DNA of 64,000 bases, taken from Antedon mediterranea (Eukaryota; Animalia; Echinodermata). Positions 31,468 to 64,000 of the stretch are shown piece by piece. The stretch lies in assembly GCF_964355755.1 (NCBI RefSeq), contig NC_092680.1, positions 15,137,045 through 15,201,044 of the forward strand, read 5' to 3'. How positions within the stretch are numbered: the stretch's first letter is position 1; every line of letters begins with the position of its first letter. Below the pieces are notes generated by a model. That model was not told where the DNA came from, made no database searches, and was given only the letters and a program-made list of their open reading frames with translations. Both the position numbers and the translations under genes were made by a program.

Positions 31468-32406
31468 TTATGGTGAAATGTCGTCGTCGTTGTTGCAGTG
31501 TTGTTCAAATGTGGATGCCGGCTCATTTACAAATCTTGACGTCAAACATAGCATACACTTAACGCAACACCACATTTTAAATAGATTATGTTTAAAATGT
31601 TCTCCAATGAATGTGTACAACACCGGATTTATTACACCATGAGAGATGAGCATGCCAACAGCCACTACAGTATTAACATCTGTAAAGGTTGTAATAATAT
31701 AAAATGGCGAAAACAATATTACGAATGATAAAGTTATAGAAATAGCGAGAATGAGCGAATGCTTTGATGATCTTCTCGTTGGGTTGTTTTCGACCTGCTG
31801 TGTTGAAGCCATGGTACACACAATCATAAAATAACAGAAGACAATTGTAATCAACGGTATTGCATAGTTCATGACAAATATATAGAACTTAAATTTTTCG
31901 AAAAGTTGGATTTGACAGTAATTAATGCCGTTCAATCGTAAAATGTATGTAAGTATCCACAGTGGTATGGAAACTAATCCTGAAACTATGAAAGTTATAA
32001 AACAAACACATTTTGCGGCTTTTTGTGTACGGTAAGTGTTCGATGAAATGCAAGGTACGATGGCGAAACATCTATCAAGGCTTAACACAACAATGATATA
32101 AACAGTGTTCAAATTTTTCCAAAATTGTACGCCTTGATAAATCACACAAAATGTGTAAGAAGGGTTAAAAATACAAGCAAATAATCTCCACCAAAGTGTA
32201 CTACCAAAAACAAATACACCACTTATAAAGTCCAGAACAGCCAGGTTGAAAATGAACACATTTTGAATATTTTGCAAATTTTTAAACATTAAAATTATTA
32301 CAATGATTAGCAGGTTGAACGATATTCCAACAATAGATGCTGCATATTTGAAAATTGGAGTATCAACCTCAAAAGAAGAACAACTTTTCGAATTATTATC
32401 AGTCAT
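31468..32406 (-). CDS. Single-exon rhodopsin-like (class A) GPCR, peptide-receptor-like; likely start MTDNNS at 32406 (ORF open to 32496)
   Basis: Seven hydrophobic segments: TM2 FIFNLAVLD, TM3 SLDRC, TM5 YAIPL, TM6 FSPFY and TM7 INPVLY. An N-glycosylation site (NNS) lies near the start. Confidence 0.88.
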   Translation of the reverse strand: MTDNNSKSCSSFEVDTPIFKYAASIVGISFNLLIIVIILMFKNLQNIQNVFIFNLAVLDFISGVFVFGSTLWWRLFACIFNPSYTFCVIYQGVQFWKNLNTVYIIVVLSLDRCFAIVPCISSNTYRTQKAAKCVCFITFIVSGLVSIPLWILTYILRLNGINYCQIQLFEKFKFYIFVMNYAIPLITIVFCYFMIVCTMASTQQVENNPTRRSSKHSLILAISITLSFVILFSPFYIITTFTDVNTVVAVGMLISHGVINPVLYTFIGEHFKHNLFKMWCCVKCMLCLTSRFVNEPASTFEQHCNNDDDISP

Positions 32407-32597
32407 TGTAATACTGGGGATACAGACAGCGCAATAACTTCGATTGATTCTGTTAACAAGCAATTCGTAATTATGATTATGGCTATATACAAACACACCT
32501 TAAACACGAGTTGTCATTGCCAATGCGAAATATTATAATTGTCTCAACCAATAAGAAATATCCATTTCTGAACTATAACCTAAAAAAAGAACAACAA

Positions 32598-42300: not shown

Positions 42301-45300
42301 CATTGTCCTGACGCAAAAATTATTATTATTATTCCCAGTCTTTACAGTAAATACAGGGAGTACTATATAATACGTTCGACTATCCTATGATCATGTGTGA
42401 CAATCTTCAGTTTATACCAGGCTATATTTATGTTCAATCTTTTACTTTTGTTTACAATAATGAATAGTAATTCGTCAAAGTAACGAATTAAAATATAGTT
42501 ATTAATTCCTATTATACACTGTTGCAGAGTCAGGTTGTTGAATGGTCTGGGTGGTAGTTGTCCGTCCGGGGGGTAGTTGTTCTAAAGGGATAGTTTTCTG
42601 GGTGGTAGTTGTCCAGGGGTTAGTTGTCCTACGGAGGTAGTTGTCCTAAAAGATTATTTGCCCTCGGAGTATTGTCCAGGTAGGAGGTAGTTGTCCTACG
42701 GGGAGTATTGTGTCAGAGGTAGTTGTCCGCGGGGTAATTACCCGGGGGGGGGGGGTGGTAATTCTCTGGGGGTAATTGTTCTTAGGGGGTAATTGTCCGG
42801 GGGATAGTTGTCCAGGGGTTAGTTGTCCAGGGGTTAGTTGTCCTACGGAGGTAGTTGTCCTAAAACCTAAAAGATTATTTGCCCTCGGAGTATTGTCCAG
42901 GAAGTAGTTGTCCTACTTATTATTATGTCAGAGGTAGTTGTCCACGGGGTAATTACCGGGGGGGGGGGGGGTAATTGTTCCCAGGGGGTAATTGTTCCCA
43001 GGGGGTAATTGTTCCCAAGGGGTAATTGTCCCCAGGGGTAATTGTCCGGGGGTAGTTTTCCAGGGGGTAGTTGTCCTAAGGGGGTTGTTGTCCTAAGGGG
43101 TATTTGTCCGGGGGTATTTGTCCGGGGGTAGTTGTCCGGGGGTAGTTGTCCTAAGGGGGTAGTTGTCCTAAGGGGGTAGTTGTCCTAAGGGGGTAGTTGT
43201 CCTAAGGGGGTAGTTGTCCTAAGGGGGTAGTGGTCCAGGTGGTGGTTGTCCGGGGGGGGTAGTTTTCCGGGGGATAGTTTTCCGGGGGTAGTTTTCCAGG
43301 GGGTAAATGTCCAGGGGGTGAATATCCAGATATGCTCTTGACCAACTGTTTACATGAGGTATTTGATCTCTGTCCATGCTTTACAGTATATAGCGATCCC
43401 TATAATTTCATAATTAATCTCATGAATTATTCATGATTTCTGCCTTAGTCTCATAGGAGAAACATTAATGCTACCTGGATGCCTATATTAGTGATATAGC
43501 TAGCATTGGACAAAAGGGGAAAAGGTTATAAAAAATAATTTTTTTTTTCGTTGTGCAGAGTATGCTGAGAAGTTAACAACCTTTGGCAGAGGCAAGCATC
43601 ATCTTGGAGATTTTCTACCGCCAGAAGAACTTAACAAATTTATGGAAACACTGAATTCTTTGAAAGAAGGTCGAACACCTGACTACTCGGACTATAAGGA
43701 GTTTAAATTACAGGCTGATAACATAGGTAAAGAAATATTTTTGGTATAAAGGTGAGGATACCAAAAAAAAAACCCATCTCAAAAGGAATCCCCCTTCCCC
43801 CACCCTCTGTGGTTTGAGTAACCTCGAAAAGAAGTCTATCTCGTTAAGATAATTATATGGCCGGCTTCTTTTTAAGATATTATGTGGGCTTCTTTTTGAG
43901 GTAGACCGTATTTGAATGTCAAAGGAAATGTATGATCAATATTTTAATTACCTTAAACTCTTAATTATCTCAACAATCAAGCCTCATATATTTATTCTAC
44001 AATTTCCTGTTTTCCAAATGGTAATTTTATTGCATCTCTTCTTGTCTGTTGCTTCTGCTGCTTGGCAAATATGTAAAATTTGCTGGGGATGTCTCAAAAG
44101 TCCTATTATTAGTAGCAATTATTAGTAATATTTAATGCATTCATTTCGATAAATAAAATGAAGTATATGGCAGAAATAAGCCAGGCCCACAGCTTTCTAC
44201 TATTTGTTTGAAATTATACATTTTAAGTTTTTATTTTCTTTGTGTAGGTTTCCAAATGTTACAGAAGCTAGGCTGGAAAGATGGAGAAGGACTTGGGTCA
44301 GAGGCTCAGGGAATAACCGCTCCAGTTAACAGGTGCGTCCTATACTAAATATTTAATATTTATTAGTGGCAATATAGTGCATATTAATTAGTATCTGTAT
44401 TCAAATAAAAACATCAATATATCAAAATTATGATAAACAATGATATTAAACAGACTAAAATCCAAGAACGTGATTAGTCAAAAGGGCATCACATGACTAT
44501 GGTTAGTGAAGCAATTCATTGAGTAAAAACAAGTTTGTGTCTTTAATAAATATTTCTTTTTTAACATTCTCACTAAATACCACACAATGCTATAAATAAT
44601 AGTACTACTAGTAGGTTTAGCGTTAATGCACTCATTGCAGTGAATTTCGCAACAAAAGACTCTCAGTTAACAACATTTGTTTTGAATTCATTTGTAATGT
44701 ATTTAGTGAATATTGTAAGAACAAGGAATCATTTTGTAGTATTTTTTGCTAGAGCAAATCATGAATTGTAAGCCATATATTAAACAGGCAATGTCTGGCT
44801 ATCTTGCCTGTGGTGGTCAAATGGTGTGACTTACTGTAGGCTAGAAATGTCATTCTCTGCACATGTTATACCCATCATTTATTGGTAAAGATGGAAGTGA
44901 AATTCACACACTTGTGTTTGATAGCAAAGTATAAATTAGCTAAAAAAAAAGTCTGGAATGGAGTTTTACAACTTTCACATTTGAAATATAGGGCAGCACA
45001 AAGGTCAGACAACCAAGGCTTGGGTATTGAGAGGCCAGCTGACTTAACCAAGGAGGATGCTGATAATGAGTATGATGCTTACCGTAAACGAATGATGTTA
45101 GCCTACAGGTTTAGGCCTAACCCTCTGGTGAGTATTTACATTTTGTTTAAAATTATAATACATTATATCATGGTTTGTTTTGTATAATAATAAATATATA
45201 ATAATAAATGCCTTTAAATTTACTTATTTTTACAAAAATTAAAAAACATAATTATTTGTTTTAGCTTGTTTACACAGTTACTCCTGATAAAAATAATAAA

Positions 45301-45353
45301 ATGACATTTCCATTTTTTTTTTTCAGAATAATCCAAGGCGTCCTTATTACTAG
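36399..45353 (+). CDS. SUGP1: SURP and G-patch domain-containing protein 1 (splicing factor 4); exons 36399-36577, 37292-37536, 38270-38443, 39018-39141, 39407-39504, 39891-40123, 40769-40934, 43559-43726, 44248-44332, 44992-45127, 45327-45353
   Basis: Motifs [11 protein letters not shown]; SURP ([12 protein letters not shown]...NPKYRFL...YYRQKV); KRKRKSRWG; [19 protein letters not shown]; [14 protein letters not shown]; G-patch [19 protein letters not shown]; and terminal [24 protein letters not shown]. Junctions are GT-AG with consistent phases. Confidence 0.96.
38539..38619. mobile_element. hAT-type MITE (CAGTGGCGTAAC...GTTACACCACTG)
   Basis: Flanked by a near-perfect 8-bp duplication, TGGTTTGC/TGGTTTGT. 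Confidence 0.7.
39529..39660. mobile_element. hAT-type MITE, same family as 38539-38619
   Basis: AAGTGGCGTA...TACGCCACTG with a perfect 8-bp target duplication, CTTGTAAT. Confidence 0.8.
41221..43334. mobile_element. Foldback-type element whose arms are tandem GGACAACTACCCC / GGGGTAGTTGTCC subrepeats
   Basis: C-rich arm at ~41221-41455 and G-rich inverted arm at ~42545-43334. The direct repeat CTCTTGAC(C) flanks both ends (41213 and 43335). Confidence 0.8.
41496..41917. mobile_element. Mutator-like MITE with an internal ~20-bp minisatellite (GGGTCTCCCTTTTCGTATA)
   Basis: GGGTGTTTC.AAACTAGAGACCCGAGACCAGAGACC TIRs and a perfect 9-bp target duplication GTTTTTAAC (41487-41495, 41918-41926). Confidence 0.85.
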
Positions 45354-46612
45354 AAAGATTGACAAGAATTGAACAGTTTTTTTTATTAATGTAGATATTT
45401 AATGAAATCAAAGTGAACAAACATTTAAATAATAATAATACAGTACACATATGAACAGAGACTTTGATTAGCGTTATATTTATAACACACCTACAGTGTA
45501 AGTAGATTCTTGATTGGACAAGTGTGAGTCACATAATTTAAAGTAAATTTACTGTAGAATTCTCGCGAGTGCAGTATTGAGTACTGTAATTTTGTTTTGC
45601 GTATATAGCATACGGATGATATATGCATACTGGCATACAGCTTGTGTTTTAGCACACAATCATATACAATTTTGTTTAGATTGAATTTTACATGGATATA
45701 ATCTAACCTAGTTTGTATTCAAAATAACTGTGGCATTAACTTTTCCAAAAACTAGACTAAATGGTTTTCACAATGTAATTTAAAGATGCATTTATGGGTT
45801 CATTGAAATTCTGATTTCGAGAAAGTTCTACTTCGAATTTTCTCCAATTGATCAATATATGGATATAGTTGTTGTTCTCACACAAACATTGTGAATTTAC
45901 TATCCTTTAATATTGTAAATAATAGCGCTGTTTTATCAATGAAGGCCCTTCCTTTCCCTCTGAAAGATTACTGGAAATTAGTGACAATAGTCAACACTTC
46001 CAATCGATCGCTTACCATTAAACTGACCCCTTGCTTGTTTTACAACAAATTCTGGCCGCAGAATGAATTTTAAATAGTATAAAGAAATCTACAGATATCC
46101 AGGAATTTGGGATATTCCAGAAGTCTTTGTATTTGTTGGTTGTAATCTATGTTGATTTTGATATACTAATGTACAAGAACAAGTTTATTATTATGTTATT
46201 AATTAAATGAATGATGATGATTAAAATGTTTTTTGCGTTGTTGTTGAGTATTCGAAAGAGTTAAAGAGAAATAATTTATGGAAAATTCGAAGTATGTGTG
46301 AATTAAAAACACAAATTAGAAGAGCGAGGTTTCGATCCTCGGACCTCTGGGTTATGGGCCCAGCACGCTTCCGCTGCGCCACTATGCTGGATGATTAAAA
46401 GAAAGGGTTAAAGAGAAATAATTTACGGAAAATTCGAAATATACGTGTGAATTAAAAGCAAAACTTAGCAGAGCGAGGTTTCGATCCTCGGACCTTTGGG
46501 TTATGGGCCCAGCACGCTTTCGCTGCGCCACTCTGCTGGTTGAGTATTCGAAAGAGTTAAAGAGAAATAATTCATGGAAAATGCGAAATACGTGTGAATT
46601 AAAAACACAAAT

Positions 46613-46684
46613 TAGCAGAGCGAGGTTTCGATCCTCGGACCTCTGGGTTATTGGCCCAGCACGCTTCCGCTGCGCCACTCTGCT
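46613..46684 (-). tRNA. Initiator-body tRNA with AAT anticodon (first of 10 copies)
   Basis: Plus strand GGGTTATTGGCCC gives the loop CC-AAT-AA; the rest of this copy is consensus. Confidence 0.85.
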
Positions 46685-46759
46685 GGATGAGTATAAGAAA
46701 GAGTTAAAGAGAAATAATTTATGGAAAATTCGAAGTATGTGTGAATTATAAACACAAAT

Positions 46760-46831
46760 TAGCAGAGCGAGGTTTCGATCCTCGGACCTCTGGGTTATGG
46801 GCCCAGCACGCTTCCGCTGCGCCACTCTGCT
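46760..46831 (-). tRNA. tRNA-iMet-CAT: Example consensus tRNA-iMet(CAT) copy
   Basis: Full 72-nt consensus cloverleaf. Confidence 0.95.
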
Positions 46832-47800
46832 GGTTGAGTATTAGAAAGAGTTAAAGAGAAATAATTTATGGAAAATTCGAAATACGTGTGAATTAAAAAC
46901 ACAAATTAGCAGAGCGAGGTTTCGATCCTCGGACCTCTGGGTTATGGGCCCAGCACGCTTCCGCTGGGCCACTCTGCTGGATGATTATAAGAAAGGGTTA
47001 AAGAGAAATAATTTATGGAAAATTCGAAATATACGTGTGAATTAAAAATAAAACTTAGCAGAGCGAGGTTTCGATCCTCAGACCTCTGGGTTATGGGCCC
47101 AGCACGCTTCCGCTGCGCCACTCTGCTGGCTGAGAGTATAAGAAAGAGTTGAAGAGAAATAATTTATGGAAAATTCGAAGTACGTGTGAATTAAAAACAC
47201 AAATTAGCAGAGCGAGGTTTCGATCCTTGGACCTCTGGGTTATGGGCCCAGCACGCTTCCGCTGCGCCACTCTGCTGGCTGAGTATTCGAAAGAGTTAAA
47301 GAGAAATAATTTATGGAAAATTCGAAATACGTGTGAATTAAAAACACAAATTAGCAGAGCGAGGTTTCGATCCTCGGACCTCTGGTGGGTTATGGGCCCA
47401 GCACGCTTCCGCTGCGCCACTCTGCTAGTGAGTATTCGAAAGAGTTAAAGAGAAATAATTTATGGAAACTTCGAAATACGTGTGAATTAAAAACAAAATG
47501 TAGCAGAGAGCGAGGTTTCGATCCTCGGACCTCTGGGTTATGGGCCCAGCACGCTTCCGCTGCGCCACTCTGCTGGATGAGAGTATAAGAAAGAGTTAAA
47601 GAGAAATAATTTTTGGAAAATTCGAAGTACGTGTGAATTAAAAACACAAATTAGCAGAGCGAGGTTTCGATCCTCGGACCTCTGGGTTATGGGCCCAGCA
47701 GGCTTCCGCTGCGCCACTCTGCTGGATGAGTATAAGAAAGGGTTAAAGAGAAATAATTTATGGAAAATTCGAAATATACGCGTGAATTAAAAACAAAACT

Positions 47801-47872
47801 TAGCAGAGCGAGGTTTCGATCCTCGGACCTCTGGGTTGTGGGCCCAGCAAGCTTCCGCTGCGCCACTCTGCT
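47801..47872 (-). tRNA. Initiator-body tRNA with CAC anticodon and a D-stem mismatch (first of 10 CAC copies)
   Basis: Plus strand GGGTTGTGGGCCCAGCAAGC gives the loop CC-CAC-AA plus a G24->T change. Confidence 0.75.
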
Positions 47873-48926
47873 GGTTGAGTATTCGAAAGAGTTAAAGAGA
47901 AATAATTTATGGAAAATTCGAAGTACGTGTGAATTAAAAACACAAATTAGCAGAGCGAGGTTTCGATCCTCGGACCTCTGGGTTATGGGCACAGCACGCT
48001 TCCGCTGCGCCACTCTGCTGGATGAGTATAAGAAAGAGTTAAAGAGAAATAATTTATGGAAAATTCGAAGTACGCGTGAATTAAAAACACAAATTAGCAG
48101 AGTGAGGTTTCGATCCTCGGACCTCTGGGTTATGGGCCAAGCACGCTTCCGCTGCGCCACTCTGCTGGATGAGTATAAGAAAGAGTTAAAGAGAAATAAT
48201 TTATGGAAAATTCGAAGTACGTGTGAATTAAAAACAGAAATTAGCAGAGCGAGGTTTCGATCCTCGGACCTCTGGGTTATGGGCCCAGCACGCTTCCGCT
48301 GCGCCACTCTGCTGGATGAGTATAAGAAAGAGTTAAAGAGAAATAATTTATGGAAAATTCGAAGTACGTGTGAATTAAAAACACAAATTAGCAGAGCGAG
48401 GTTTCGATCCTCGGACCTCTGGGTTATGGGCCCAGCACGCTTCCGCTGCGCCACTCTGCTGGATGAGTATAAGAAAGAGTTAAAGAGAAATAATTTATGG
48501 AAAATTCGAAGTACGTGTGAATTAAAAACACAAATTAGCAGAGCGAGGTTTCGATCCTCGGACCTCTGGGTTGTGGGCCCAGCAAGCTTCCGCTGCGCCA
48601 CTCTGCTGGTTCAGTATTCGAAAGAGTTAAAGAGAAATAATTTATGGAAAATTCGAAGTACGTGTGAATTAAAAACACAAATTAGCAGAGCGAGGTTTCG
48701 ATCCTCGGACCTCTGGGTTATGGGCCCAGCACGCTTCCGCTGCGCCACTCTGCTGGATGAGTATAAGAAAGGATTAAAGAGAAATAATTTATGGAAAATT
48801 CGAAATATACGTGTGAATTAAAAGCAAAATTTAGCAGAGCGAGGTTTCGATCCACGGACCTCTGGGTTATGGGCCCAGCACGCTTCCGTTGCGCCACTTT
48901 GCTGGATGAGTATAAGAAAGGGTTAA

Positions 48927-49004
48927 GTTTATTCCATTCTGTAAGGGGCGGGTTTCCCGCTGTTGAATGAGTTTGAATAAAATAAATAAAATAAAATAAA
49001 ATAA
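48927..49004 (+). mobile_element. ~78-bp foreign insertion with an (AATAA)n tail in one tRNA spacer; probable 5'-truncated retroelement 3' end
   Basis: It interrupts the spacer GGTTAA^AGAGAA and reads GTTTATTCCATTCTGTAAGGGGCGGGTTTCCCGCTGTTGAATGAGTTTG followed by AATAA repeats. Confidence 0.65.
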
Positions 49005-52000
49005 AGAGAATTTATGGAAAATTCGAAATATACGTGTGAATTAAAAACAAAACTTAGCAGAGCGAGGTTTCGATCCTCGGACCTCTGGGTTGTGGGCCCA
49101 GCAAGCTTCCGCTGCGCCACTCTGCTGGTTGAGTATTCGAAAGAGTTAAAGAGAAATAATTTATGGAAAATTCGAAGTACGTGTGAATTAAAAACACAAA
49201 TTAGCAGAGCGAGGTTTCGATCCTCGGACCTCTGGGTTATGGGCCCAGCACGCTTCCGCTGCGCCACTCTGCTGGATGAGTATAAGAAAGAGTTAAAGAG
49301 AAATAATTTATGGAAAATTCGAAGTACGTGTGAATTAAAAACACAAATTAGCAGAGCGAGGTTTCGATCCTCGGACCTCTGGGTTATGGGCCCAGCACGC
49401 TTCCGCTGCGCCACTCTGCTGGATGAGTATAAGAAAGAGTTAAAGAGAAATAATTTATGGAAAATTCGAAGTACGTGTGAATTAAAAACACAAATTAGCA
49501 GAGCGAGGTTTCGATCCTCGGACCTCTGGGTTATGGGCCCAGCACGCTTCCGCTGCGCCACTCTGCTGGATGAGTATAAGAAAGAGTTAAAGAGAAATAA
49601 TTTATTGAAAATTCGAAGTACGTGTGAATTAAAAACACAAATTAGCAGAGCGAGGTTTCGATTCTCGGACCTCTGGGTTATGGGCCCAGCACGCTTCCGC
49701 TGCGCCACTCTGCTGGATGAGTATTCGAAAGAGTTAAAGAGAAATAATTCATGGAAAATGCGAAATACGTGTGAATTAAAAATAAAATTTAGCAGAGGGC
49801 GAGGTTTCGATCCTCGGACCTCTGGGTTATGGGCCCAGCACGCTTTCAATGCTCCATTCTGCTGGTTGAGTATTAGAAAGAGTTAAAGAGAAATAATTTA
49901 TGGAAAATTCGAAGTACGTGTGAATTAAAAACACAAATTAGCAGAGCGAGGTTTCGATCCTCGGACCTCTGGGTTATGGGCCCAGCACGTTTCCGCTGCG
50001 CCACTCTGCTGGATGAGTATAAGAAAGGATTAAAGAGAAATAATTTATGGAAAATTCGAAATATACGTGTGAATTAAAAATAAAATTTAGCAGAGGGCGA
50101 GGTTTCGATCCTCGGACCTCTGGGCCCACACGATTCCGCTGCGCCACTCTGCTGGATGAGAGTATAAGAAAGAGTTAAAGAGAAATAATTTTTGGAAAAT
50201 TCGAAGTACGTGTGAATTAAAAACACAAATTATCAGAGCGAGGTTTCGATCCTCGGACCTCTGGGTTATGGGCCCAGCACGCTTCCGCTGCGCCACTCTG
50301 CTGGATGAGTATAAGAAAGGGTTAAAGAGAAATAATTTTTGGAAAATTCGAAGTACGTGTGAATTAAAAACACAAATTAGCAGAGCGAGGTTTCGATCCT
50401 CGGACCTCTGGGTTATGGGCCCAGCACGCTTCCGCTGCGCCACTCTGCTGGATGAGTATAAGAAAGGGTTAAAGAGAAATAATTTATGGAAAATTCGAAA
50501 TATACGTGTGAATTAAAAACAAAACTTAGCAGAGCGAGGTTTCGATCCTCGGACCTCTGGGTTGTGGGCCCAGCAAGCTTCCGCTGCGCCACTCTGCTGG
50601 TTGAGTATTCGAAAGAGTTAAAGAGAAATAATTTATGGAAAATTCGAAGTACGTGTGAATTAAAAACACAAATTAGCAGAGCGAGGTTTCGATCCTCGGA
50701 CCTCTGGGTTATGGGCCCAGCACGCTTCCGCTGCGCCACTCTGCTGGATGAGTATAAGAAAGGATTAAAGAGAAATAATTTATAGAAAATTCGAAATATA
50801 CGTGTGAATTAAAAGCAAAATTTAGCAGAGCGAGGTTTAGATCCACGGACCTCTGGGTTATGGGCCCAGCCCGCTTCCGTTGCGCCACTTTGCTGGATGA
50901 GTATAAGAAAGGGTTAAAGAGAAATAATTTATGGAAAATTCGAAATATACGTGTGAATTAAAAACAAAACTTAGCAGAGCGAGGTTTCGATCCTCGGACC
51001 TCTGGGTTATGGGCCCAGCACGCTTCCGCTGCGCCACTCTGCTGGATGAGTATAAGAAAGAGTTAAAGAGAAATAATTTATGGAAAATTCGAAGTACGTG
51101 TGAATTAAAAACACAAATTAGCAGAGCGAGGTTTCGATCCTCGGACCTCTGGGTTATGGGCCCAGCACGCTTCCGCTGCGCCACTCTGCTGGATGAGTAT
51201 AAGAAAGAGTTAAAGAGAAATAATTTATGGAAAATTCGAAGTACGTGTGAATTAAAAACACAAATTAGCAGAGCGAGGTTTCGATCCTCGGACCTCTGGG
51301 TTATGGGCCCAGCACGCTTCCGCTGCGCCACTCTGCTGGATGAGTATTCGAAAGAGTTAAAGAGAAATAATTCATGGAAAATGCGAAATACGTGTGAATT
51401 AAAAATAAAATTTAGCAGAGGGCGAGGTTTCGATCCTCGGACCTCTGGGTTATGGGCCCAGCACGCTTTCAATGCTCCATTCTGCTGGTTGAGTATTAGA
51501 AAGAGTTAAAGATAAATAATTTATGGAAAATTCGAAGTACGTGTGAATTAAAAACACAAATTAGCAGAGCGAGGTTTCGATCCTCGGACCTCTGGGTTAT
51601 GGGCCCAGCACGCTTCCGCTGCGCCACTCTGCTGGATGAGTATAAGAAAGGATTAAAGAGAAATAATTTATGGAAAATTCGAAATATACGTGTGAATTAA
51701 AAATAAAATTTAGCAGAGGGCGAGGTTTCGATCCTCGGACCTCTGGGCCCACACGATTCCGCTGCGCCACTCTGCTGGATGAGAGTATAAGAAAGAGTTA
51801 AAGAGAAATAATTTTTGGAAAATTCGAAGTACGTGTGAATTAAAAACACAAATTATCAGAGCGAGGTTTCGATCCTCGGACCTCTGGGTTATGGGCCCAG
51901 CACGCTTCCGCTGCGCCACTCTGCTGGATGAGTATAAGAAAGGGTTAAAGAGAAATAATTTATGGAAAATTGGAAATATACGTGTGAATTAAAAACAAAA

Positions 52001-55000
52001 CTTAGCAGAGCGAGGTTTCGATCCTCGGACCTCTGGGTTGTGGGCCCAGCAAGCTTCCGCTGCGCCACTCTGCTGGTTGAATATTCGAAAGAGTTAAAGA
52101 GAAATAATTTATGGAAAATTCGAAGTACGTGTGAATTAAAAACACAAATTAGCAGAGCGAGGTTTCGATCCTCGGACCTCTGGGTTATGGGCCCAGCACG
52201 CTTCCGCTGCGCCACTCTGCTGGATGAGTATAAGAAAGGATTAAAGAGAAATAATTTATGGAAAATTCGAAATATACGTGTGAATTAAAAGCAAAATTTA
52301 GCAGAGCGAGGTTTCGATCCACGGACCTCTGGGTTATGGGCCCAGCACGCTTCCGCTGCGCCACTTTGCTGGATGAGTATAAGAAAGGGTTAAAGAGAAA
52401 TAATTTATGGAAAATTCAAAATATACGTGTGAATTAAAAACAAAACTTAGCAGAGCGAGGTTTCGATCCTCGGACCTCTGGGTTGTGGGCCCAGCAAGCT
52501 TCCGCTGCGCCACTCTGCTGGTTGAGTATTCGAAAGAGTTAAAGAGAAATAATTTATGGAAAATTCGAAATACGTGTGAATTAAAAACACAAATTAGCAG
52601 AGCGAGGTTTCGATCCTCGGACCTCTGGGTTATGGGCCCAGCACGCTTCCGCTGCGCCACTCTGCTAGATGATTATAAGAAAGGGTTAAAGAGAAATAAT
52701 TCATGGAAAATGCGAAATACGTGTGAATTAAAAATAAAATTTAGCAGAGGGCGAGGTTTCGATCCTCGGACCTCTGGGTTATGGGCCCAGCACGCTTTCA
52801 ATGCTCCATTCTGCTGGTTGAGTATTAGAAAAAGTTAAAGAGAAATAATTCATGGAAAATGCGAAATACGTGTGAATTAAAAACACAAATTAGCAGAGCG
52901 AGGTTTCGATCCTCGGACCTCTGGGTTATGGGCCCAGCACGCTTCCGCTGCGCCACTCTGCTGGATGAGTATAAGAAAGGATTAAAGAGAAATAATTTAT
53001 GGAAAATTCGAAATATACGTGTGAATTAAAAATAAAATTTAGCAGAGGGCGAGGTTTCGATCCTCGGACCTCTGGGCCCACACGATTCCGCTGCGCCACT
53101 CTGCTGGATGAGAGTATAAGAAAGAGTTAAAGAGAAATAATTTTTGGAAAATTCGAAGTACGTGTGAATTAAAGACACAAATTATCAGAGCGAGGTTTCG
53201 ATCCTCGGACCTCTGGGTTATGGGCCCAGCACGCTTCCGCTGCGCCACTCTGCTGGATGAGTATAAGAAAGGGTTAAAGAGAAATAATTTATGGAAAATT
53301 GGAAATATACGTGTGAATTAAAGACAAAACTTAGCAGAGCGAGGTTTCGATCCTCGGACCTCTGGGTTGTGGGCCCAGCAAGCTTCCGCTGCGCCACTCT
53401 GCTGGTTGAATATTCGAAAGAGTTAAAGAGAAATAATTTATGGAAAATTCGAAGTACGTGTGAATTAAAAACACAAATTAGCAGAGCGAGGTTTCGATCC
53501 TCGGACCTCTGGGTTATGGGCCCAGCACGCTTCCGCTGCGCCACTCTGCTGGATGAGTATAAGAAAGGATTAAAGAGAAATAATTTATGGAAAATTCGAA
53601 ATATACGTGTGAATTAAAAGCAAAATTTAGCAGAGCGAGGTTTCGATCCACGGACCTCTGGGTTATGGGCCCAGCACGCTTCCGCTGCGCCACTTTGCTG
53701 GATGAGTATAAGAAAGGGTTAAAGAGAAATAATTTATGGAAAATTCAAAATATACGTGTGAATTAAAAACAAAACTTAGCAGAGCGAGGTTTCGATCCTC
53801 GGACCTCTGGGTTGTGGGCCCAGCAAGCTTCCGCTGCGCCACTCTGCTGGTTGAGTATTCGAAAGAGTTAAAGAGAAATAATTTATGGAAAATTCGAAAT
53901 ACGTGTGAATTAAAAACACAAATTAGCAGAGCGAGGTTTCGATCCTCGGACCTCTGGGTTATGGGCCCAGCACGCTTCCGCTGCGCCACTCTGCTAGATG
54001 ATTATAAGAAAGGGTTAAAGAGAAATAATTCATGGAAAATGCGAAATACGTGTGAATTAAAAATAAAATTTAGCAGAGGGCGAGGTTTCGATCCTCGGAC
54101 CTCTGGGTTATGGGCCCAGCACGCTTTCAATGCTCCATTCTGCTGGTTGAGTATTAGAAAAAGTTAAAGAGAAATAATTCATGGAAAATGCGAAATACGT
54201 GTGAATTAAAAACACAAATTAGCAGAGCGAGGTTTCGATCCTCGGACCTCTGGGTTATGGGCCCAGCACGCTTCCGCTGCGCCACTCTGCTGGTTGCTGA
54301 GTATTAGAAAGAGTTAAAGAGAAATAATTTATGGAAAATTCGAAATACGTGTGAATTAAAAACACAAATTAGGAGAGCGAGTTTTCGATCCTCGGACCTC
54401 TGGACCCATACGCTTCCGCTGCGCCACTCTGCTGGATGAGTATTAGAAAGAGTTGAAGAGAAATAATTTATGGAAAATTTGACATACGTGTGAATTAAAA
54501 AAAAAATTAGCAGAGCGAGGTTTCGATCCTCGGACGTCTGGGTTATGGGCCCAGCACGCTTCCGCTGCGCCACTATGCTGGATGAGAGTATAAGAAATAG
54601 TTAAAGAGAAATAATTTATGGAAAATTCGAAGTACGCGTGAATTAAAAACACAAATTAGCAGAGCGAGGTTTCGATCCTCGGACTTCTGGGTTATGGGCC
54701 CAGCACGCTTCCGCTGCGCCACTCTGCTGGCTGAGTATACGAAAGAGTTAAAGAGAAATAATTCATGTAAAATTCGAAATACGTGTGAATTAAAACCACA
54801 AGTTAGCAGAGCGAGGTTTCGATCCTCGGACCTCTGGGTTATGGGCCCAGCACGCTTCCGCTGCGCCACTCTGCTGGATGAGTATAAGAAAGAGTTAAAG
54901 AGAAATAATTTATGGAAAATTCGAAGTACGTGTGAATTAAAAACACAAATTAGCAGAGCGAGGTTTCGATCCTCGGACCTCTGGGTTATGGGCCCAGCAC

Positions 55001-58000
55001 GCTTCCGCTGCGCCACTCTGCTGGATGAGTATTCGAAAGAGTTAAAGAGAAATAATTGATGGAAAATGCGAAATACGTGTGAATTAAAAATAAAATTTAG
55101 CAGAGAGCGAGGTTTCGATCCTCGGACCTCTGGACCCACACGCTTCCGCTGCGCCACTCTGCTGGATGAGAGTATAAGAAAGAGTTAAAGAGAAATAATT
55201 TTTGCAAAATTCGAAGTACGTGTGAATTAAAAACACAAATTAGCAGAGCGAGGTTTCGATCCTCGGACCTCTGGGTTATGGGCCCAGCACGCTTCCGCTG
55301 CGCCACTCTGCTGGATGAGTATAAGAAAGGGTTAAAGAGAAATAATATATGGAAAATTCGAAATATACGTATGTGTGAATTAAAAGCAAAACTTAGCAGA
55401 GCGAGGTTTCGATCCACGGACCTCTGGGTTATGGGCCCAGCACGCTTCCGCTGCGCCACTCTGCTGGTTGAGTATTCCAAAGAGTTAAAGAGAAATAATT
55501 TATGGAAAATGCGAAATACGTGTGAATTAAATAAAATTTGGCAGAGAGCGAGGTTTCGATCCTCGGACCTCTGGGCCCACACGCTTCCGCTGCGCCACTC
55601 TGCTGGATGAGTATAAGAAAGAGTTAAAGAGAAATAATTTACGGAAAATTCGAAGTATGTGTGAATTAAAAACACAAATTAGCAAAGCGAGGTTTCGATC
55701 CTCGGACCTCTGGGTTATGGGCCCAGCACGCTTCCGCTGCGCCACTCTGCTGGATGAGTATTAGAAAGAGTTAAAGATAAATAATTTATGGAAAATTCGA
55801 AGTACGTGTGAATTAAAAACACAAATTAGCAAAGCGAGGTTTCGATCCTCGGACCTCTGGGTTATGGGCCCAGCACGCTTCCGCTGCGCCACTCTGCTGG
55901 CTGAGTATTCGAAAGAGTTAAAGAGAAATAATTTATGGAAAATTCGAAATACGTGTGAATTAAAAACACAAATTAGCAGAGCGAGGTTTCGATCCTCGGA
56001 CCTCTGGGTTATGGGCCCAGCACGCTTCCGTTGCGCCACTCTGCTGGGTGAGAGTATAAGAAAGAGTTAAAGAGAAATAATTTATGGAAAATTCGAAGTA
56101 CGTGTGAAATAAAAACACAAATTAGCAAAGCGAGGTTTCGGTCCTCGGACCTCTGGGTTATGGGCCCAGCACGCTTCCGCTGCGCCACTCTGCCGGATGA
56201 GAGTATAAGAAAGAGTTAAAGAGAAATAATTTATGGAAAATTCGAAGTACGTGTGAATTAAAAACACAAATTAGCAGAGCGAGGTTTCGATCCTCGGACC
56301 TCTGGGTTATGGGCCCAGCACGCTTCCGCTGCGCCACTCTGCTGGCTGCGTATTAGAAAGAGTTAAAGAGAAATAATTTATGAAAAATTCAAAATACGTG
56401 TGAATTAAAAACAAAATTTAGCAGAGAGCGAGGTTTCGATCCTCGGACCTCTGGGGTATGGGCCCAGCACGCTTCCGCTGCGCCACTCTGCTGGATGAGT
56501 ATAAGAAAGGGTTAAAGAGAAATAATTTATGGAAAATTCGAAATATACGTGTGAATTAAAAACAAAACTTAGCAGAGCGAGGTTTCGATCCTCGATCGGA
56601 CCTCTGGGTTGTGGGCCCAGCACGCCTCCGCTGCGCCACTCTGCTGGTTGAGTATTCGAAAGAGTTAAAGAGAAATAATTTATGGAAAATTCGAAGTATG
56701 TGTGAATTAAAAACACAAATTAGAAGAGCGAGGTTTCGATCCTCGGACCTCTGGGTTATGGGCCCAGCACGCTTCCGCTGCGCCACTATGCTGGATGATT
56801 AAAAAAAAGGGTTAAAGAGAAATAATTTACGGAAAATTCGAAATATACGTGTGAATTAAAAGCAAAACTTAGCAGAGCGAGGTTTCGATCCTCGGACCTC
56901 TGGGTTATGGGCCCAGCACGCTTTCGCTGCGCCACTCTGCTGGTTGAGTATTCGAAAGAGTTAAAGAGAAATAATTCATGGAAAATGCGAAATACGTGTG
57001 AATTAAAAATACAAATTAGCAGAGCGAGGTTTCGATCCTCGGACCTCTGGGTTATTGGCCCAGCACGCTTCCGCTGCGCCACTCTGCTGGATGAGTATAA
57101 GAAAGAGTTAAAGAGAAATAATTTATGGAAAATTCGAAGTATGTGTGAATTATAAACACAAATTAGCAGAGCGAGGTTCCGATCCTCGGACCTCTGGGTT
57201 ATGGGCCCAGCACGCTTCCGCTGCGCCACTCTGCTGGTTGAGTATTAGAAAGAGTTAAAGAGAAATAATTTATGGAAAATTCGAAATACGTGTGAATTAA
57301 AAACACAAATTAGCAGAGCGAGGTTTCGATCCTCGGACCTCTGGGTTATTGGCCCAGCACGCTTCCGCTGCGCCACTCTGCTGGTTGAGTATTCCAAAGA
57401 GTTAAAGAGAAATAATTGATGGAAAATTTGAAATACTTGTGAATTAAAAACACAAATTAGCAGAGCGAGCTTTCGATCCTCGGACCTCTGGGTTATGGGC
57501 CCAGCACGCTTCCGCTGCGCCACTCTGCTGGATGAGTATTAAAAAGAGTTAAAGAGAAATAATTTATGAAAAATTCGAAATACGTGTGAATTAAAAACAC
57601 AAATTAACAGAGCGAGGTTTCGATCCTCGGACCTCTGGGTTATGGGACCAGCACGTTTCCGCTGCGCCACTCTGCTGGTTGAGTATTAGAAAGAGTTAAA
57701 GAGAAATAATTTATTGAAAATTCGAAATACGTGTGAATTAAAAACACAAATTAGCAGAGCGAGGTTTCGATCCTCGGACCTCTGGGTTATGGGCCCAGCA
57801 CGCTTCCGCTGCGCCACTCTGCTGGTTGAGTATTAGAAAGAGTTAAAGAGAAATAATTTATGGAAAATTCGAAATACGTGTGAATTAAAAACACAAATTA
57901 GCAGAGCGAGGTTTCGATCCTCGGACCTCTGGGTTATGGGACCAGCACGCTTCCGCTGCGCCACTCTGCTGGATGAGTATTAGAAAGAGTTAAAGAGAAA

Positions 58001-61000
58001 CAATTTATGGAAAATTCGAAATACGTGTGAATTAAAAACACAAATTAGGAGAGCGAGGTTTTGATCCTCGGACCTCTGGGTTATGGGCCCAGCACGCTTC
58101 CGCTGCGCCACTCTGCTGGATGAGTATTAGAAAGAGTTAAAGAGAAATTATGTATTGAAAATTCGAAATACGTGTGAATTAAAAACACAAATTAGCAGAG
58201 CGAGGTTTCGATCCTCGGACCTCTGGGTTATGGGCCCAGCACGCTTTCGCTGCGCCACTCTGCTGGATGAGTATTAGAAAGAGTTAAAGAGAAATAATTT
58301 ATGGAAAATTCGAAATATACGTGTGAATTAAAAGTAAAACTTAGCAGAGCGAGGTTTCGATCCTCGGACCTCTGGGTTATGGGCCCAGCACGCTTCCGCT
58401 GCGCCACTCTGCTGGATGAGTATAAGAAAGGGTTAAAGAGAAATAATTTATGGAAAATTCGAAATATACGTGTGAATTAAAAGGAAAACTTAGCAGAGCG
58501 AGGTTTCGATCCTCGGACCTCTGGGTTATGGGCCCAGCACGCTTCCGCTGCGCCACTCTGCTGGTTGAGTATTAGAAAGAGTTAAAGAGAAATAATTCAT
58601 GGAAAATTCGAAATACGTGTGAATTAAAAACAAAATTTAGCAGAGAGCGAGGTTTCGATCCTCGGACCTCTGGGCCCACACGCTTCCGCTGCGCCACTTT
58701 GCTGGATGAGTATTCGAAAGAGTTAAAAAGAAATAATGTATTGAAAATTCGAAATACGTGTGAATTAAAAACACAAATTAGCAGAGTGAGGTTTCGATCC
58801 TCGGACCTCTGGGTTATGGGCCCAGCACGCTTTCGCTGCGCCACTCTGCTGGATGAGTATTAGAAAGAGTTAAAGAGAAATAATTTATGGGAAATTCGAA
58901 ATACGTGTGAATTAAAAACACAAATTAGCAGAGCGAGGTCTCGATCCTCGGACTTCTGGGTTATGGGTCCAGCACGCTTCCGCTGCGCCACTCTGCTGGA
59001 TGAGTATCAGAAAGGGTTAAAGAGAAATAATTTATGGACAATTCGAAATATACGTGTGAATTAAAAGCAAAACTTAGCAGAGCGAGGTTTCGATCCTCGG
59101 ACCTCTGGGTTATGGGCCCAGCACGCTTCCGCTGCGCCACTCTGCTGGTTGAGTATTCGAAAGAGTTAAAGAGAAATAATTCATGGAAAATGCGAAATAC
59201 GTGTGAATTAAAAACACAAATTAGCAGAGCGAGGTTTCGATCCTCGGACCTCTGGGTTATTGGCCCAGCACGCTTCCGCTGCGCCACTCTGCTGGATGAG
59301 TATAAGAAAGAGTTAAAGAGAAATAATTTATGGAAAATTCGAAGTATGTGTGAATTATAAACACAAATTAGCAGAGCGAGGTTTCGATCCTCGGACCTCT
59401 GGGTTATGGGCCCAGCACGCTTCCGCTGCGCCACTCTGCTGGTTGAGTATTAGAAAGAGTTAAAGAGAAATAATTTATAGAAAATTCGAAATACGTGTGA
59501 ATTAAAAACACAAATTAGCAGAGCGAGGTTTCGATCCTCGGACCTCTGGGTTATTGGCCCAGCACGCTTCCGCTGCGCCACTCTGCGGGTTGAGTATTCC
59601 AAAGAGTTAAAGAGAAATAATTTATGGAAAATTTGAAATACTTGTGAATTAAAAACACAAATTAGCAGAGCGAGGTTTCGATCCTCGGACCTCTGGGTTA
59701 TGGGCCCAGCACGCTTCCGCTGCGCCACTCTGCTGGATGAGTATTAAAAAGAGTTAAAGAGAAATAATTTATGGAAAATTCGAAATACGTGTGAATTAAA
59801 AACACAAATTAACAGAGCGAGGTTTCGATCCTCGGACCTCTGGGTTATGGGAACAGCACGTTTCCGCTGCGCCACTCTGCTGGTTGAGTATTAGAAAGAG
59901 TTAAAGAGAAATAATTATTTATTGAAAATTCGAAATACGTGTGAATTAAAAACACAAATTAGCAGAGCGAGGTTTCGATCCTCGGACCTCTGGGTTATGG
60001 GCCCAGCACGCTTCCGCTGCGCCACTCTGCTGGTTGAGTATTAGAAAGAGTTAAAGAGAAATAATTTATGGAAAATTCGAAATACGTGTGAATTAAAAAC
60101 ACAAATTAGCAGAGCGAGGCTTCCGCTGCGCCACTCTGCTGGATGAGTATTAGAAAGAGTTAAAGAGAAATAATGTATTGAAAATTCGAAATACGTGTGA
60201 ATTAAAAACACAAATTAGCAGAGCGAGGTTTCGATCCTCGGACCTCTGGGTTATGGGCCCAGCACGCTTTCGCTGCGCCACTCTGCTGGATGAGTATTAG
60301 AAAGAGTTAAAGAGAAATAATTTATGGAAAATTCGAAATATACGTGTGAATTAAAAGTAAAACTTAGCAGAGCGAGGTTTCGATCCTCGGACCTCTGGGT
60401 TATGGGCCCAGCACGCTTCCGCTGCGCCACTCTGCTGGATGAGTATAAGAAAGGGTTAAAGAGAAATAATTTATGGAAAATTCGAAATATATGTGTGAAT
60501 TAAAAGGAAAACTTAGCAGAGCGAGGTTTCGATCCTCGGACCTCTGGGTTATGGGCCCAGCACGCTTCCGCTGCGCCACTCTGCTGGTTGAGTATTAGAA
60601 AGAGTTAAAGAGAAATAATTCATGGAAAATTCAAAATATACGTGTGAATTAAAAACAAAACTTAGCAGAGCGAGGTTTCGATCCTCGATCGGACCTCTGG
60701 GTTGTGGGCCCAGCACGCCTCCGCTGCGCCACTCTGCTGGTTGAGTATTCGAAAGAGTTAAAGAGAAATAATTTATGGAAAATTCGAAATATACGTGTGA
60801 ATTAAAAACAAAACTTAGCAGAGCGAGGTTTCGATCCTCGATCGGACCTCTGGGTTATGGGCCCAGCACGCTTCCGCTGCGCCACTCTGCTGGATGATTA
60901 AAAGAAAGGGTTAAAGAGAAATAATTTACGGAAAATTTGAAATATACGTGTGAATTAAAAGCAAAACTTAGCAGAGCGAGGTTTCGATCCTCGGACCTCT

Positions 61001-64000
61001 GGGTTATGGGCCCAGCACGCTTCCGCTGCGCCACTCCGCTGGTTGAGTATTCGAAAGAGTTAAAGAGAAATAATTCATGGAAAATGCGAAATACGTGTGA
61101 ATTAAAAACACAAATTAGCAGAGCGAGGTTTCGATCCTCGGACCTCTGGGTTATTGGCCCAGCACGCTTCCGCTGCGCCACTCTGCTGGATGAGTATAAG
61201 AAAGAGTTAAAGAGAAATAATTTATGGAAAATTCGAAGTATGTGTGAATTATAAACACAAATTAGCAGAGCGAGGTTTCGATCCTCGGACCTCTGGGTTA
61301 TGGGCCCAGCACGCTTCCGCTGCGCCACTCTGCTGGTTGAGTATTAGAAAGAGTTAAAGAGAAATAATTTATGGAAAATTCGAAATACGTGTGAATTAAA
61401 AACACAAATTAGCAGAGCGAGGTTTCGATCCTCGGACCTCTGGGTTATTGGCCCAGCACGCTTCCGCTGCGCCACTCTGCTGGTTGAGTATTCTAAAGAG
61501 TTAAAGAGAAACAATTTATGGGAAATTCGAAATACGTGTGAATTAAAAACACAAATTAGCAGAGCGAGGTCTCGATCCTCGGACTTCTGGGTTATGGGTC
61601 CAGCACGCTTCCGCTGCGCCACTCTGCTGGATGAGTATCAGAAAGGGTTAAAGAGAAATAATTTATGGACAATTCGAAATATACGTGTGAATTAAAAGCA
61701 AAACTTAGCAGAGCGAGGTTTCGATCCTCGGACCTCTGGGTTATGGGCCCAGCACGCTTCCGCTGCGCCACTCTGCTGGTTGAGTATTCGAAAGAGTTAA
61801 AGAGAAATAATTCATGGAAAATGCGAAATACGTGTGAATTAAAAACACAAATTAGCAGAGCGAGGTTCCGATCCTCGGACCTCTGGGTTATTGGCCCAGC
61901 ACGCTTCCGCTGCGCCACTCTGCTGGATGAGTATAAGAAAGAGTTAAAGAGAAATAATTTATGGAAAATTCGAAGTATGTGTGAATTATAAACACAAATT
62001 AGCAGAGCGAGGTTTCGATCCTCGGACCTCTGGGTTATGGGCCCAGCACGCTTCCGCTGCGCCACTCTGCTGGTTGAGTATTAGAAAGAGTTAAAGAGAA
62101 ATAATTTATAGAAAATTCGAAATACGTGTGAATTAAAAACACAAATTAGCAGAGCGAGGTTTCGATCCTCGGACCTCTGGGTTATTGGCCCAGCACGCTT
62201 CCGCTGCGCCACTCTGCGGGTTGAGTAATCCAAAGAGTTAAAGAGAAATAATTTATGGAAAATTTGAAATACTTGTGAATTAAAAACACAAATTAGCAGA
62301 GCGAGGTTTCGATCCTCGGACCTCTGGGTTATGGGCCCAGCACGCTTCCGCTGCGCCACTCTGCTGGATGAGTATTAAAAAGAGTTAAAGAGAAATAATT
62401 TATGGAAAATTCGAAATACGTGTGAATTAAAAACACAAATTAACAGAGCGAGGTTTCGATCCTCGGACCTCTGGGTTATGGGACCAGCACGTTTCCGCTG
62501 CGCCACTCTGCTGGTTGAGTATTAGAAAGAGTTAAAGAGAAATAATTATTTATTGAAAATTCGAAATACGTGTGAATTAAAAACACAAATTAGCAGAGCG
62601 AGGTTTCGATCCTCGGACCTCTGGGTTATGGGCCCAGCACGCTTCCGCTGCGCCACTCTGCTGGTTGAGTATTAGAAAGAGTTAAAGAGAAATAATTTAT
62701 GGAAAATTCGAAATACGTGTGAATTAAAAACACAAATTAGCAGAGCGAGGCTTCCGCTGCGCCACTCTGCTGGATGAGTATTAGAAAGAGTTAAAGAGAA
62801 ATAATGTATTGAAAATTCGAAATACGTGTGAATTAAAAACACAAATTAGCAGAGCGAGGTTTCGATCCTCGGACCTCTGGGTTTTGGGCCCAGCACGCTT
62901 TCGCTGCGCCACTCTGCTGGATGAGTATTAGAAAGAGTTAAAGAGAAATAATTTATGGAAAATTCGAAATATACGTGTGAATTAAAAGTAAAACTTAGCA
63001 GAGCGAGGTTTCGATCCTCGGACCTCTGGGTTATGGGCCCAGCACGCTTCCGCTGCGCCACTCTGCTGGATGAGTATAAGAAAGGGTTAAAGAGAAATAA
63101 TTTATGGAAAATTCGAAATATATGTGTGAATTAAAAGGAAAACTTAGCAGAGCGAGGTTTCGATCCTCGGACCTCTGGGTTATGGGCCCAGCACGCTTCC
63201 GCTGCGCCACTCTGCTGGTTGAGTATTCGAAAGAGTTAAAGAGAAATAATTTATGGAAAATTCGAAATATACGTGTGAATTAAAAACAAAACTTAGCAGA
63301 GCGAGGTTTCGATCCTCGATCGGACCTCTGGGTTATGGGCCCAGCACGCTTCCGCTGCGCCACTCTGCTGGATGATTAAAAGAAAGGGTTAAAGAGAAAT
63401 AATTTACGGAAAATTCGAAATATACGTGTGAATTAAAAGCAAAACTTAGCAGAGCGAGGTTTCGATCCTCGGACCTCTGGGTTATGGGCCCAGCACGCTT
63501 CCGCTGCGCCACTCTGCTGGTTAAGTATTCGAAAGAGTTAAAGAGAAATAATTCATGGAAAATGCGAAATACGTGTGAATTAAAAACACAAATTAGCAGA
63601 GCGAGGTTCCGATCCTCGGACCTCTGGGTTATTGGCCCAGCACGCTTCCGCTGCGCCACTCTGCTGGATGAGTATAAGAAAGAGTTAAAGAGAAATAATT
63701 TATGGAAAATTCGAAGTATGTGTGAATTATAAAAACAAATTAGCAGAGTGAGGTTTCGATCCTCGGACCTCTGGGTTATGGGCCCAGCACGCTTCCGCTG
63801 CGCCACTCTGCTGGTTGAGTATTAGAAAGAGTTAAAGAGAAATAATTTATGGAAAATTCGAAATACGTGTGAATTAAAAACACAAATTAGCAGAGCGAGG
63901 TTTCGATCCTCGGACCTCTGGGTCATGGGCCCAGCACGCTTCCGCTGCGCCACTCTGCTGGTTGAGTATTAGAAAGAGTTAAAGAGAAATAATTTATGGA

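What the first reader, a model, noticed from the sequence alone, without database searches (positions are those of the whole stretch)
46613..63670. Ten initiator-tRNA genes with an AAU anticodon: candidate AUU/AUC/AUA-start initiator tRNAs
Seen: the loop CC-AAT-AA occurs in copies with anticodons near 46650, 57054, 57348, 59259, 59553, 61153, 61447, 61890, 62184 and 63631. About six are otherwise consensus, keeping A1:U72, the three G:C pairs, A54/A60 and a terminator; two have a T-loop change and two an acceptor-stem change. Known: A34 is converted to inosine by ADAT2/3 in eukaryotic tRNA-Ile(AAU); MetRS and IleRS read the anticodon; engineered anticodon-mutant initiator tRNAs can start translation at non-AUG codons with non-Met amino acids. 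Inference: if expressed, these could be natural initiators for Ile codons. Caveat: their positions track higher-order duplications, so one or two mutations may simply have been amplified neutrally.
Basis: partly seen in the sequence, partly recalled or inferred. Interest (0 to 1): 0.8.

Follow-up and report, generated by a model that had tools for sequence, protein, structure and literature searches.

The report
Passenger mutations in initiator-tRNA array
In a feather star, ten of 120 tandem start-tRNA gene copies carry an isoleucine-type anticodon, but they likely stem from one or two mutations copied along with their neighbours, are no commoner than visibly broken copies, and are most likely passengers rather than a new way of starting proteins.

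Summary
Six are otherwise consensus, two also have A58G and two A1C. They lie in a tandem array of at least 120 initiator-tRNA units of 147-149 bp in a crinoid (a window protein is 100% identical to Antedon mediterranea treslin-like).

Only 40 of 120 genes are perfect and 67 carry structural lesions. AAT (10 copies) ties with a CAC anticodon (10, all with a second lesion) and G19A (10), and is close to an anticodon-arm deletion (7). With the changed anticodon base masked, AAT needs two changes on the unit tree. The six main copies have neighbours amplified equally often (6, 6, 6). Best reading: hitchhiking in array turnover, giving tRNAs that would be poor MetRS and eIF2 substrates.

Expression, charging and presence in other individuals were not tested. 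An anticodon-shifted initiator gene is already described in Drosophila simulans. Low interest, with a small chance of real AUU/AUC/AUA initiators.

The parts
46225..64000 (-). Tandem array of initiator-tRNA(Met) genes: 120 units of 147-149 bp (72-bp gene plus about 75-bp A+T-rich spacer with T4/T5 terminator), with higher-order repeats; runs off the window's right end
46613..46684 (-). AAT copy u118, lineage A, otherwise consensus; its 4-unit block is a duplicate of 56721-57235
   Evidence: offset 10404 bp
57017..57088 (-). AAT copy u048, lineage A, otherwise consensus gene
57311..57382 (-). AAT copy u046, lineage B, otherwise consensus gene
59222..59293 (-). AAT copy u033, lineage A, otherwise consensus gene
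59516..59587 (-). AAT copy u031, lineage B, also A1C (A1:U72 lost)
61116..61187 (-). AAT copy u020, lineage A, otherwise consensus gene
61410..61481 (-). AAT copy u018, lineage B, otherwise consensus gene
61853..61924 (-). AAT copy u015, lineage A, also A58G (m1A58 site and B box)
62147..62218 (-). AAT copy u013, lineage B, also A1C
63594..63665 (-). AAT copy u003, lineage A, also A58G
47801..60738 (-). Internal control: ten CAC-anticodon (U36C) copies. Eight (47801, 48536, 49055, 50527, 52003, 52448, 53332, 53777) also have G24U, breaking a D-stem pair; two (56570, 60663) have A21G and a 4-nt insertion
50088..62771 (-). Internal control: seven copies with an 8-nt deletion in the anticodon arm (50088, 51711, 53040, 54370, 55104, 55545, 58644) and two with a 38-nt deletion (gene starts 60140, 62771)
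62847..62918 (-). Single CAA-anticodon copy, also G19A

Best explanation
The ten AAT genes are copies in a 120-unit tandem array of initiator-tRNA genes that likely descend from one or two C34A mutations carried along when multi-unit blocks were duplicated, and they likely do nothing useful. Shown: the array, its block duplications, two AAT lineages, and equal amplification of their neighbours. Inferred: unequal crossing-over and gene conversion spread new alleles, while selection on the array's total output of working tRNA keeps any one gene allele to about 8% of copies. Inferred fate of a transcript from the six intact copies: it would fold and be processed. It has lost the MetRS determinant C34 and might be weakly charged with Ile, more so if A34 is edited to inosine. 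eIF2, which reads the methionine, would then bind it poorly, and the initiator body would keep it off eEF1A. The likely result is a near-inert tRNA diluted by 40 perfect copies in this window alone.
For: (1) Masking the changed anticodon base (34), AAT needs 2 changes on the tree of 120 units; shuffled mean 9.7, 0 of 500 shuffles as low. Distances are 0-2 within lineage A, 1-4 within B and 6-8 between them, against a mean of 10.2 for all pairs. (2) The six lineage-A copies form one position class whose two neighbour classes also have six members each, and these include damaged genes; the four B copies share a class with one non-AAT unit. (3) 40 of 120 genes are perfect and 67 have a stem mismatch, invariant-site change or indel. 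CAC (10 copies, 10 of 10 with a second lesion), G19A (10) and the 8-nt deletion (7) are as common or nearly so. (4) Four of ten AAT copies have since been hit at A1 or A58, two key initiator positions (PMC11231383, PMC6412873 passages; PMC9362929 abstract). (5) Alleles with 10 or more copies are 3 of 48 in genes, 13 of 62 in spacers and 28-32% in a toy neutral simulation, so ten copies needs no positive selection. (6) C>A/G>T is a common class here, 13 of 53 gene alleles. (7) C34 is a eukaryotic Met identity element (PMC9976931), and eIF2 strongly recognises the esterified methionine (PMC6412873). (8) Another feather star has 11,013 predicted tRNA genes (PMC13079724), so redundancy appears large in this group.
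Against: Six of ten copies have no second lesion and keep promoter and terminator. AAT is the only one of the three largest gene lineages (AAT, CAC, 8-nt deletion) that is mostly intact, and all three alter the anticodon or its loop. The anticodon has the highest variant load of all 70 triplets (21 copies, p 0.007 against three random sites). Only 3 of 72 sites reach ten copies. None of 200 bootstrap trees gave a single origin, so two origins of the same change are possible. Only part of the array and one haplotype were seen.
Confidence: 0.8

Rival explanations
1. The six intact copies are expressed and charged, and cause low-level unselected initiation at AUU/AUC/AUA. This would be a tolerated side effect, not an adaptation.
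For: Promoter boxes, terminator and initiator marks are intact in 6 of 10. Eukaryotic Ile identity is listed as N34, A35, U36, and I34 raises yeast IleRS kcat 12-fold. Anticodon-mutant initiators work in mammalian cells (Drabkin and RajBhandary 1998, seen only as cited in PMC11744186; the paper itself was not held).
Against: eIF2 depends strongly on the methionine. The intact copies are 6 of 120 against 40 perfect ones. The body lacks the U30:G40 pair typical of tRNA-Ile (PMC9023262). AUU starts are already read by ordinary Met-tRNAi (PMC9082881).
Confidence: 0.12
2. The copies are selected initiators for Ile codons.
For: The anticodon triplet carries the largest variant load (p 0.007; 0.037 after collapsing duplicated blocks). 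Two origins are possible. AAT sits at the top of the gene-allele counts.
Against: The triplet excess comes mostly from CAC copies that are all damaged. With AAT set aside as the reason for looking, p is 0.063. After collapsing blocks AAT counts 2, which 28% of sites reach. Neighbours were amplified equally. Four of ten copies already lost A1 or A58. There is no shared compensatory change towards tRNA-Ile identity.
Confidence: 0.05
3. The AAT copies are sequencing or assembly errors in a repetitive region.
For: The region is a long tandem array, and the anticodon position was not checked against reads.
Against: The allele recurs in ten copies, always linked to the same two spacer haplotypes and in register across duplicated blocks up to 17 kb apart. 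It is a substitution, not a homopolymer indel. Collapse or expansion could change the number of copies but would not create the allele.
Confidence: 0.03

Closest known systems
Non-canonical initiator tRNA gene of Drosophila simulans, CAU to CGU (bioRxiv 10.1101/2020.07.24.220558, section 5 read whole)
   Same: An initiator-tRNA body identical to its paralogues except for one anticodon substitution; function untested.
   Different: That is one gene among five to seven initiator genes, changed at position 35. Here position 34 is changed (AAT) and the allele stands in ten of at least 120 tandem copies.
Alloacceptor anticodon shifts in eukaryotic tRNA genes (Rogers and Griffiths-Jones 2014, PMC3923123, passages)
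   Same: Single-base anticodon change, with gene redundancy named as the likely driver.
   Different: That study required syntenic orthologues and reported no initiator shifts (one was later reassigned). Orthology of the AAT copies across species is untested here.
Engineered anticodon-mutant initiator tRNAs (Drabkin and RajBhandary 1998, as cited in PMC11744186; Cigan et al. 1988, title only in a reference list)
   Same: Initiator body with a non-CAU anticodon, the molecule these copies would make.
   Different: Those were engineered and assayed (overexpression is recalled, not checked). The passages seen name no AAU anticodon case, and nothing was assayed here.
Tandem tRNA gene arrays, e.g. 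Entamoeba (PMC2652664, search listing and start of abstract only)
   Same: Head-to-tail tRNA genes with spacers.
   Different: Here the unit is one initiator gene with a short A+T-rich spacer, and two-thirds of the copies are mutated.
Eukaryotic elongator tRNA-Ile(AAU/IAU)
   Same: Anticodon sequence and discriminator A73.
   Different: Acceptor, anticodon and T stems and T loop are those of the initiator, not of tRNA-Ile (PMC9023262 Table 1 passage). ARAGORN's 'Ile' label follows the anticodon only.

Membership tests
Eukaryotic initiator tRNA (body) | A1:U72 pair | tested here: met
   8 of 10 AAT copies; lost in 62147 and 59516
Eukaryotic initiator tRNA (body) | Three G:C pairs 29-31/39-41, C33, A54, A60 | tested here: met
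   10 of 10 AAT copies unchanged at these sites; features; A60 recalled
Eukaryotic initiator tRNA (body) | A58, the site of m1A58 | tested here: met
   8 of 10; A58G in 63594 and 61853
Eukaryotic initiator tRNA (canonical) | CAU anticodon (MetRS determinants C34, A35, U36) | tested here: not met
   AAT in all ten; determinants from PMC9976931
Functional non-AUG initiator tRNA | Transcribed and matured with CCA | not testable with these tools
Functional non-AUG initiator tRNA | Aminoacylated and bound by eIF2; initiates at AUH | not testable with these tools
   Needs biochemistry
Functional non-AUG initiator tRNA | Kept by selection: more frequent than null alleles | tested here: not met
   10 copies against CAC with second lesion 10, G19A 10, 8-nt deletion 7; one haplotype, part of the array
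Functional non-AUG initiator tRNA | Allele shared by other individuals or species | not tested
   The anticodon position was not read in other samples; only spacer and flank were
Elongator tRNA-Ile(AAU) | Ile-type stems, including U30:G40 | tested here: not met
   Stems match the initiator row of PMC9023262 Table 1 except for the T stem; G30:C40
Passenger allele in a tandem array under turnover | Few origins, copies in register with duplicated blocks, neighbours amplified equally | tested here: met

The most novel reading that the evidence does not exclude
Feather stars keep, within a giant initiator-tRNA array, a minority of anticodon-shifted initiators. The AAU/IAU form is expressed, charged and delivered by eIF2, and opens AUU, AUC and AUA as cognate start codons: a natural second initiator tRNA in an animal.
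Probability: 0.05. Interest if true: 0.8.

Novelty: new member of a known kind. Interest (0 to 1): 0.2.

Why it matters
If the best reading holds, the lesson is practical. In tRNA-rich genomes such as crinoids, anticodon-based annotation reports decaying initiator copies as Ile, Val or Leu genes, and the copy number of a variant is no sign of function. The array is also a clean natural record of how far null alleles can spread in an essential multicopy gene. If the novel reading held, it would be a natural animal initiator tRNA cognate to a non-AUG codon, with no such case found in my searches. It would make the question of whether eIF2 ever delivers a non-Met initiator in vivo directly testable.

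Tried and rejected
No whole genome is held, so the array's full length and other initiator loci are unknown.

Sequencing-run search: 14 runs listed, all as contigs; no RNA holder listed, which is no evidence on expression. The anticodon share in other samples stayed unmeasured. In one search, runs X6 and X10 covered only 5 and 1 of 30 bins and none of the spacer, which is uninformative. Summed contig depths there are not copy numbers and were not used as such.

Minimum-energy folding gave non-cloverleaf folds even for the perfect copy, so it cannot rank copies. The fixed cloverleaf has the same energy for CAT and AAT copies (-27.1 kcal/mol).

Earlier scan notes: none on this genome or look-alike stretches; one search gave one loosely related note.

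Rejected: elongator tRNA-Ile (wrong body); a tRNA-derived SINE (units are head to tail, gene plus short spacer, no tail body; read from the sequence); sequencing error. A stem-versus-loop excess of alleles was not seen (30 of 42 against 18 of 30 sites). Drabkin and RajBhandary 1998 was not held. The first scripted search timed out and was redone with BLAST.
Full report
Observation. ARAGORN finds 105 tRNA genes in the window, all on the minus strand from 46317 to 63959; Rfam gives 107 tRNA matches and nothing else. BLAST with one perfect copy shows 120 head-to-tail units of mostly 147-149 bp that continue past the window end. Ten genes have anticodon AAT at exactly the reported places. In Sprinzl numbering the change is C34A. 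Six copies have no other gene change, two also have A58G and two A1C, and all ten have a T5 run 8 nt downstream.

Setting. An open frame at 19035-19916 is 100% identical over 90% of its length to a protein named treslin-like of Antedon mediterranea, and 66% identical to one of Anneissia japonica (2 hits among 3289 candidates). The window is therefore crinoid. A deep-sea feather star is reported to have 11,013 predicted tRNA genes (PMC13079724, passages). The array ends about 1 kb from the stop codon of a convergent G-patch gene (the name SUGP1 is recalled, not from a call). Laying the flank and last spacer (45330-46316) on 4 of the 14 listed runs showed spacer-like contigs joined to tRNA ends in X5 and in X7. 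X5 is a second sample of the same coded organism; X7 is a different coded organism whose flank contig differs by 29 letters and 56 gap positions over about 550 bases. The array type is thus shared beyond this individual. Whether the AAT allele is shared was not measured.

State of the array. Of 120 genes, 40 are perfect and 7 have a CAT anticodon with a minor change. Another 67 have a stem mismatch, a change at an invariant site or an indel by my rule-based classification, and 6 differ only by AAT. Two of the indel calls are 2-nt duplications at the acceptor end that ARAGORN still accepts. The commonest gene alleles are C34A (10), U36C giving CAC (10), G19A (10, in three groups), G24U (8, all on CAC copies) and an 8-nt anticodon-arm deletion (7). 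All ten CAC copies have a second lesion. Counts exclude alignment artefacts beside deletions and the poorly aligned ends of two units (48 gene and 62 spacer alleles; before cleaning: 53 and 72).

Origin of the ten copies. With position 34 masked, the AAT units fall into lineage A (six units, distances 0-2) and lineage B (four units, distances 1-4), 6-8 apart, against 10.2 for all pairs. The tree of all 120 units needs two changes (bootstrap range 2-3; none of 200 bootstrap trees gave one, though well-supported branches alone do not rule one out; shuffled mean 9.7). The tree has few columns and many open forks. Block duplications explain the positions: 12 units at an offset of 2631 bp, 7 units at 2208 and at 4839 bp, and 4 units at 1894, 4099, 2478 and 10404 bp. 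Collapsing units by own and neighbour similarity gives 51 position classes. Lineage A is one class of six, flanked by two other classes of six, and lineage B shares a class of five with a non-AAT unit. A58G occurs both on two AAT copies and on a non-AAT neighbour of lineage A. I read this as gene conversion between adjacent units, which could also have moved one C34A from one lineage to the other (inference).

Is ten a lot? Alleles with ten or more copies are 3 of 48 in genes and 13 of 62 in spacers. No gene allele exceeds ten, while 13 spacer alleles do (Fisher p 0.0005, overstated because alleles are linked). A toy neutral model of block duplication and deletion gave 28-32% of alleles at ten or more copies (crude, four settings, 60 runs each). 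Rare alleles are about as dense in genes as in spacers (48 at 72 sites, 49 at 75), though genes have fewer alleles per G/C site (0.78 against 1.42) and per A/T site (0.48 against 0.62). I infer weak selection on single copies and a ceiling set by selection on the whole array. AAT sits at that ceiling beside evident nulls.

Results against this reading. The anticodon has the highest variant load of the 70 triplets (21 copies; p 0.007 against three random sites). The three largest gene lineages all alter the anticodon or its loop, and AAT is the only mostly intact one. The test is post hoc. Setting AAT aside gives p 0.063. After collapsing blocks the triplet still gives p 0.037, but 7 of its 9 classes come from position 36 (CAC and CAA), and AAT's two classes are reached by 28% of sites. 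I leave this excess as unexplained and as the main reason not to put the functional reading at zero.

Likely mechanism. Shown: the internal promoter and terminator of six copies are unchanged. From papers (passages unless stated): C34, A35 and U36 are eukaryotic Met determinants, and N34, A35, U36 with I34 are Ile determinants (PMC9976931). I34 raises yeast IleRS kcat 12-fold, and the vertebrate initiator sequence blocks elongation-factor binding (PMC11301382). eIF2 strongly recognises the esterified methionine and prefers A1-U72 (PMC6412873; PMC11231383). Initiator tRNA without m1A58 is degraded in yeasts (PMC9362929, abstract). AUU starts are already used by standard Met-tRNAi (PMC9082881). 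Inferred: four copies are dead or crippled. The other six would give a tRNA poorly methionylated, perhaps isoleucylated, and poorly accepted by both eIF2 and eEF1A. ADAT2/3 editing of this body is untested.

Comparison with what is known. A natural initiator gene with a shifted anticodon (CGU) is described in Drosophila simulans, function untested (bioRxiv 10.1101/2020.07.24.220558, passages and section 5). Anticodon shifts in general track gene redundancy (PMC3923123). Engineered anticodon-mutant initiators work in mammalian cells (seen only as cited in PMC11744186). My searches showed no paper on an AAU-anticodon initiator gene or on this crinoid array in their listings. The library lacks most subscription papers, several listings were partial (for example 20 of 63 and 20 of 57), and I read no supplements, where tRNA annotation tables could list such genes.

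Verdict. A real feature, correctly described, best explained as one or two passenger mutations amplified in a turning-over initiator-tRNA array (0.8). Unselected low-level activity 0.12, selected Ile-codon initiators 0.05, artefact 0.03. New member of a known kind; interest 0.2.

Noticed in passing
window 46225-64000: The array itself: at least 120 tandem initiator-tRNA genes, only a third perfect, with nested higher-order repeats of 9, 11, 15 and 18 units; a similar spacer joined to tRNA ends is present in coded organism B (run X7).
   Followed up: partly
window 47801-60738: Ten initiator-body copies with CAC anticodon (would read GUG), each with a second lesion; one CAA copy at 62847. The three largest gene lineages all alter the anticodon or its loop, which is unexplained.
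   Followed up: partly
window about 48930-49010: A 76-bp foreign insertion with (TTTTA)n in the spacer between two units; it matches 33702-33781 at 73% over 82 bases, probably a dispersed-repeat fragment.
   Followed up: partly
window 39000-46180: Multi-exon G-patch gene (PF01585; resembles SUGP1 from recall) convergent with the array; a contig of run X5 ends at 46178, about 140 bases from the last tRNA gene.
   Followed up: partly
window 41229-43329: Intron of that gene with inverted arrays of 15-17-bp G+C-rich repeats (41229-41447 and 42569-43329) around a 22-bp tandem repeat (41563-41873); looks like a foldback or MITE-type element.
   Followed up: no
window 7014-19916 (-): Exons of treslin (PF21854).
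   Followed up: yes
window 31468-32499 (-): Intronless rhodopsin-family GPCR frame, 343 aa (PF00001).
   Followed up: no
window 339-707 (+) and 26411-27067 (-): Frames resembling C-terminal remnants of LINE reverse-transcriptase proteins (from recall; no Pfam hit).
   Followed up: no
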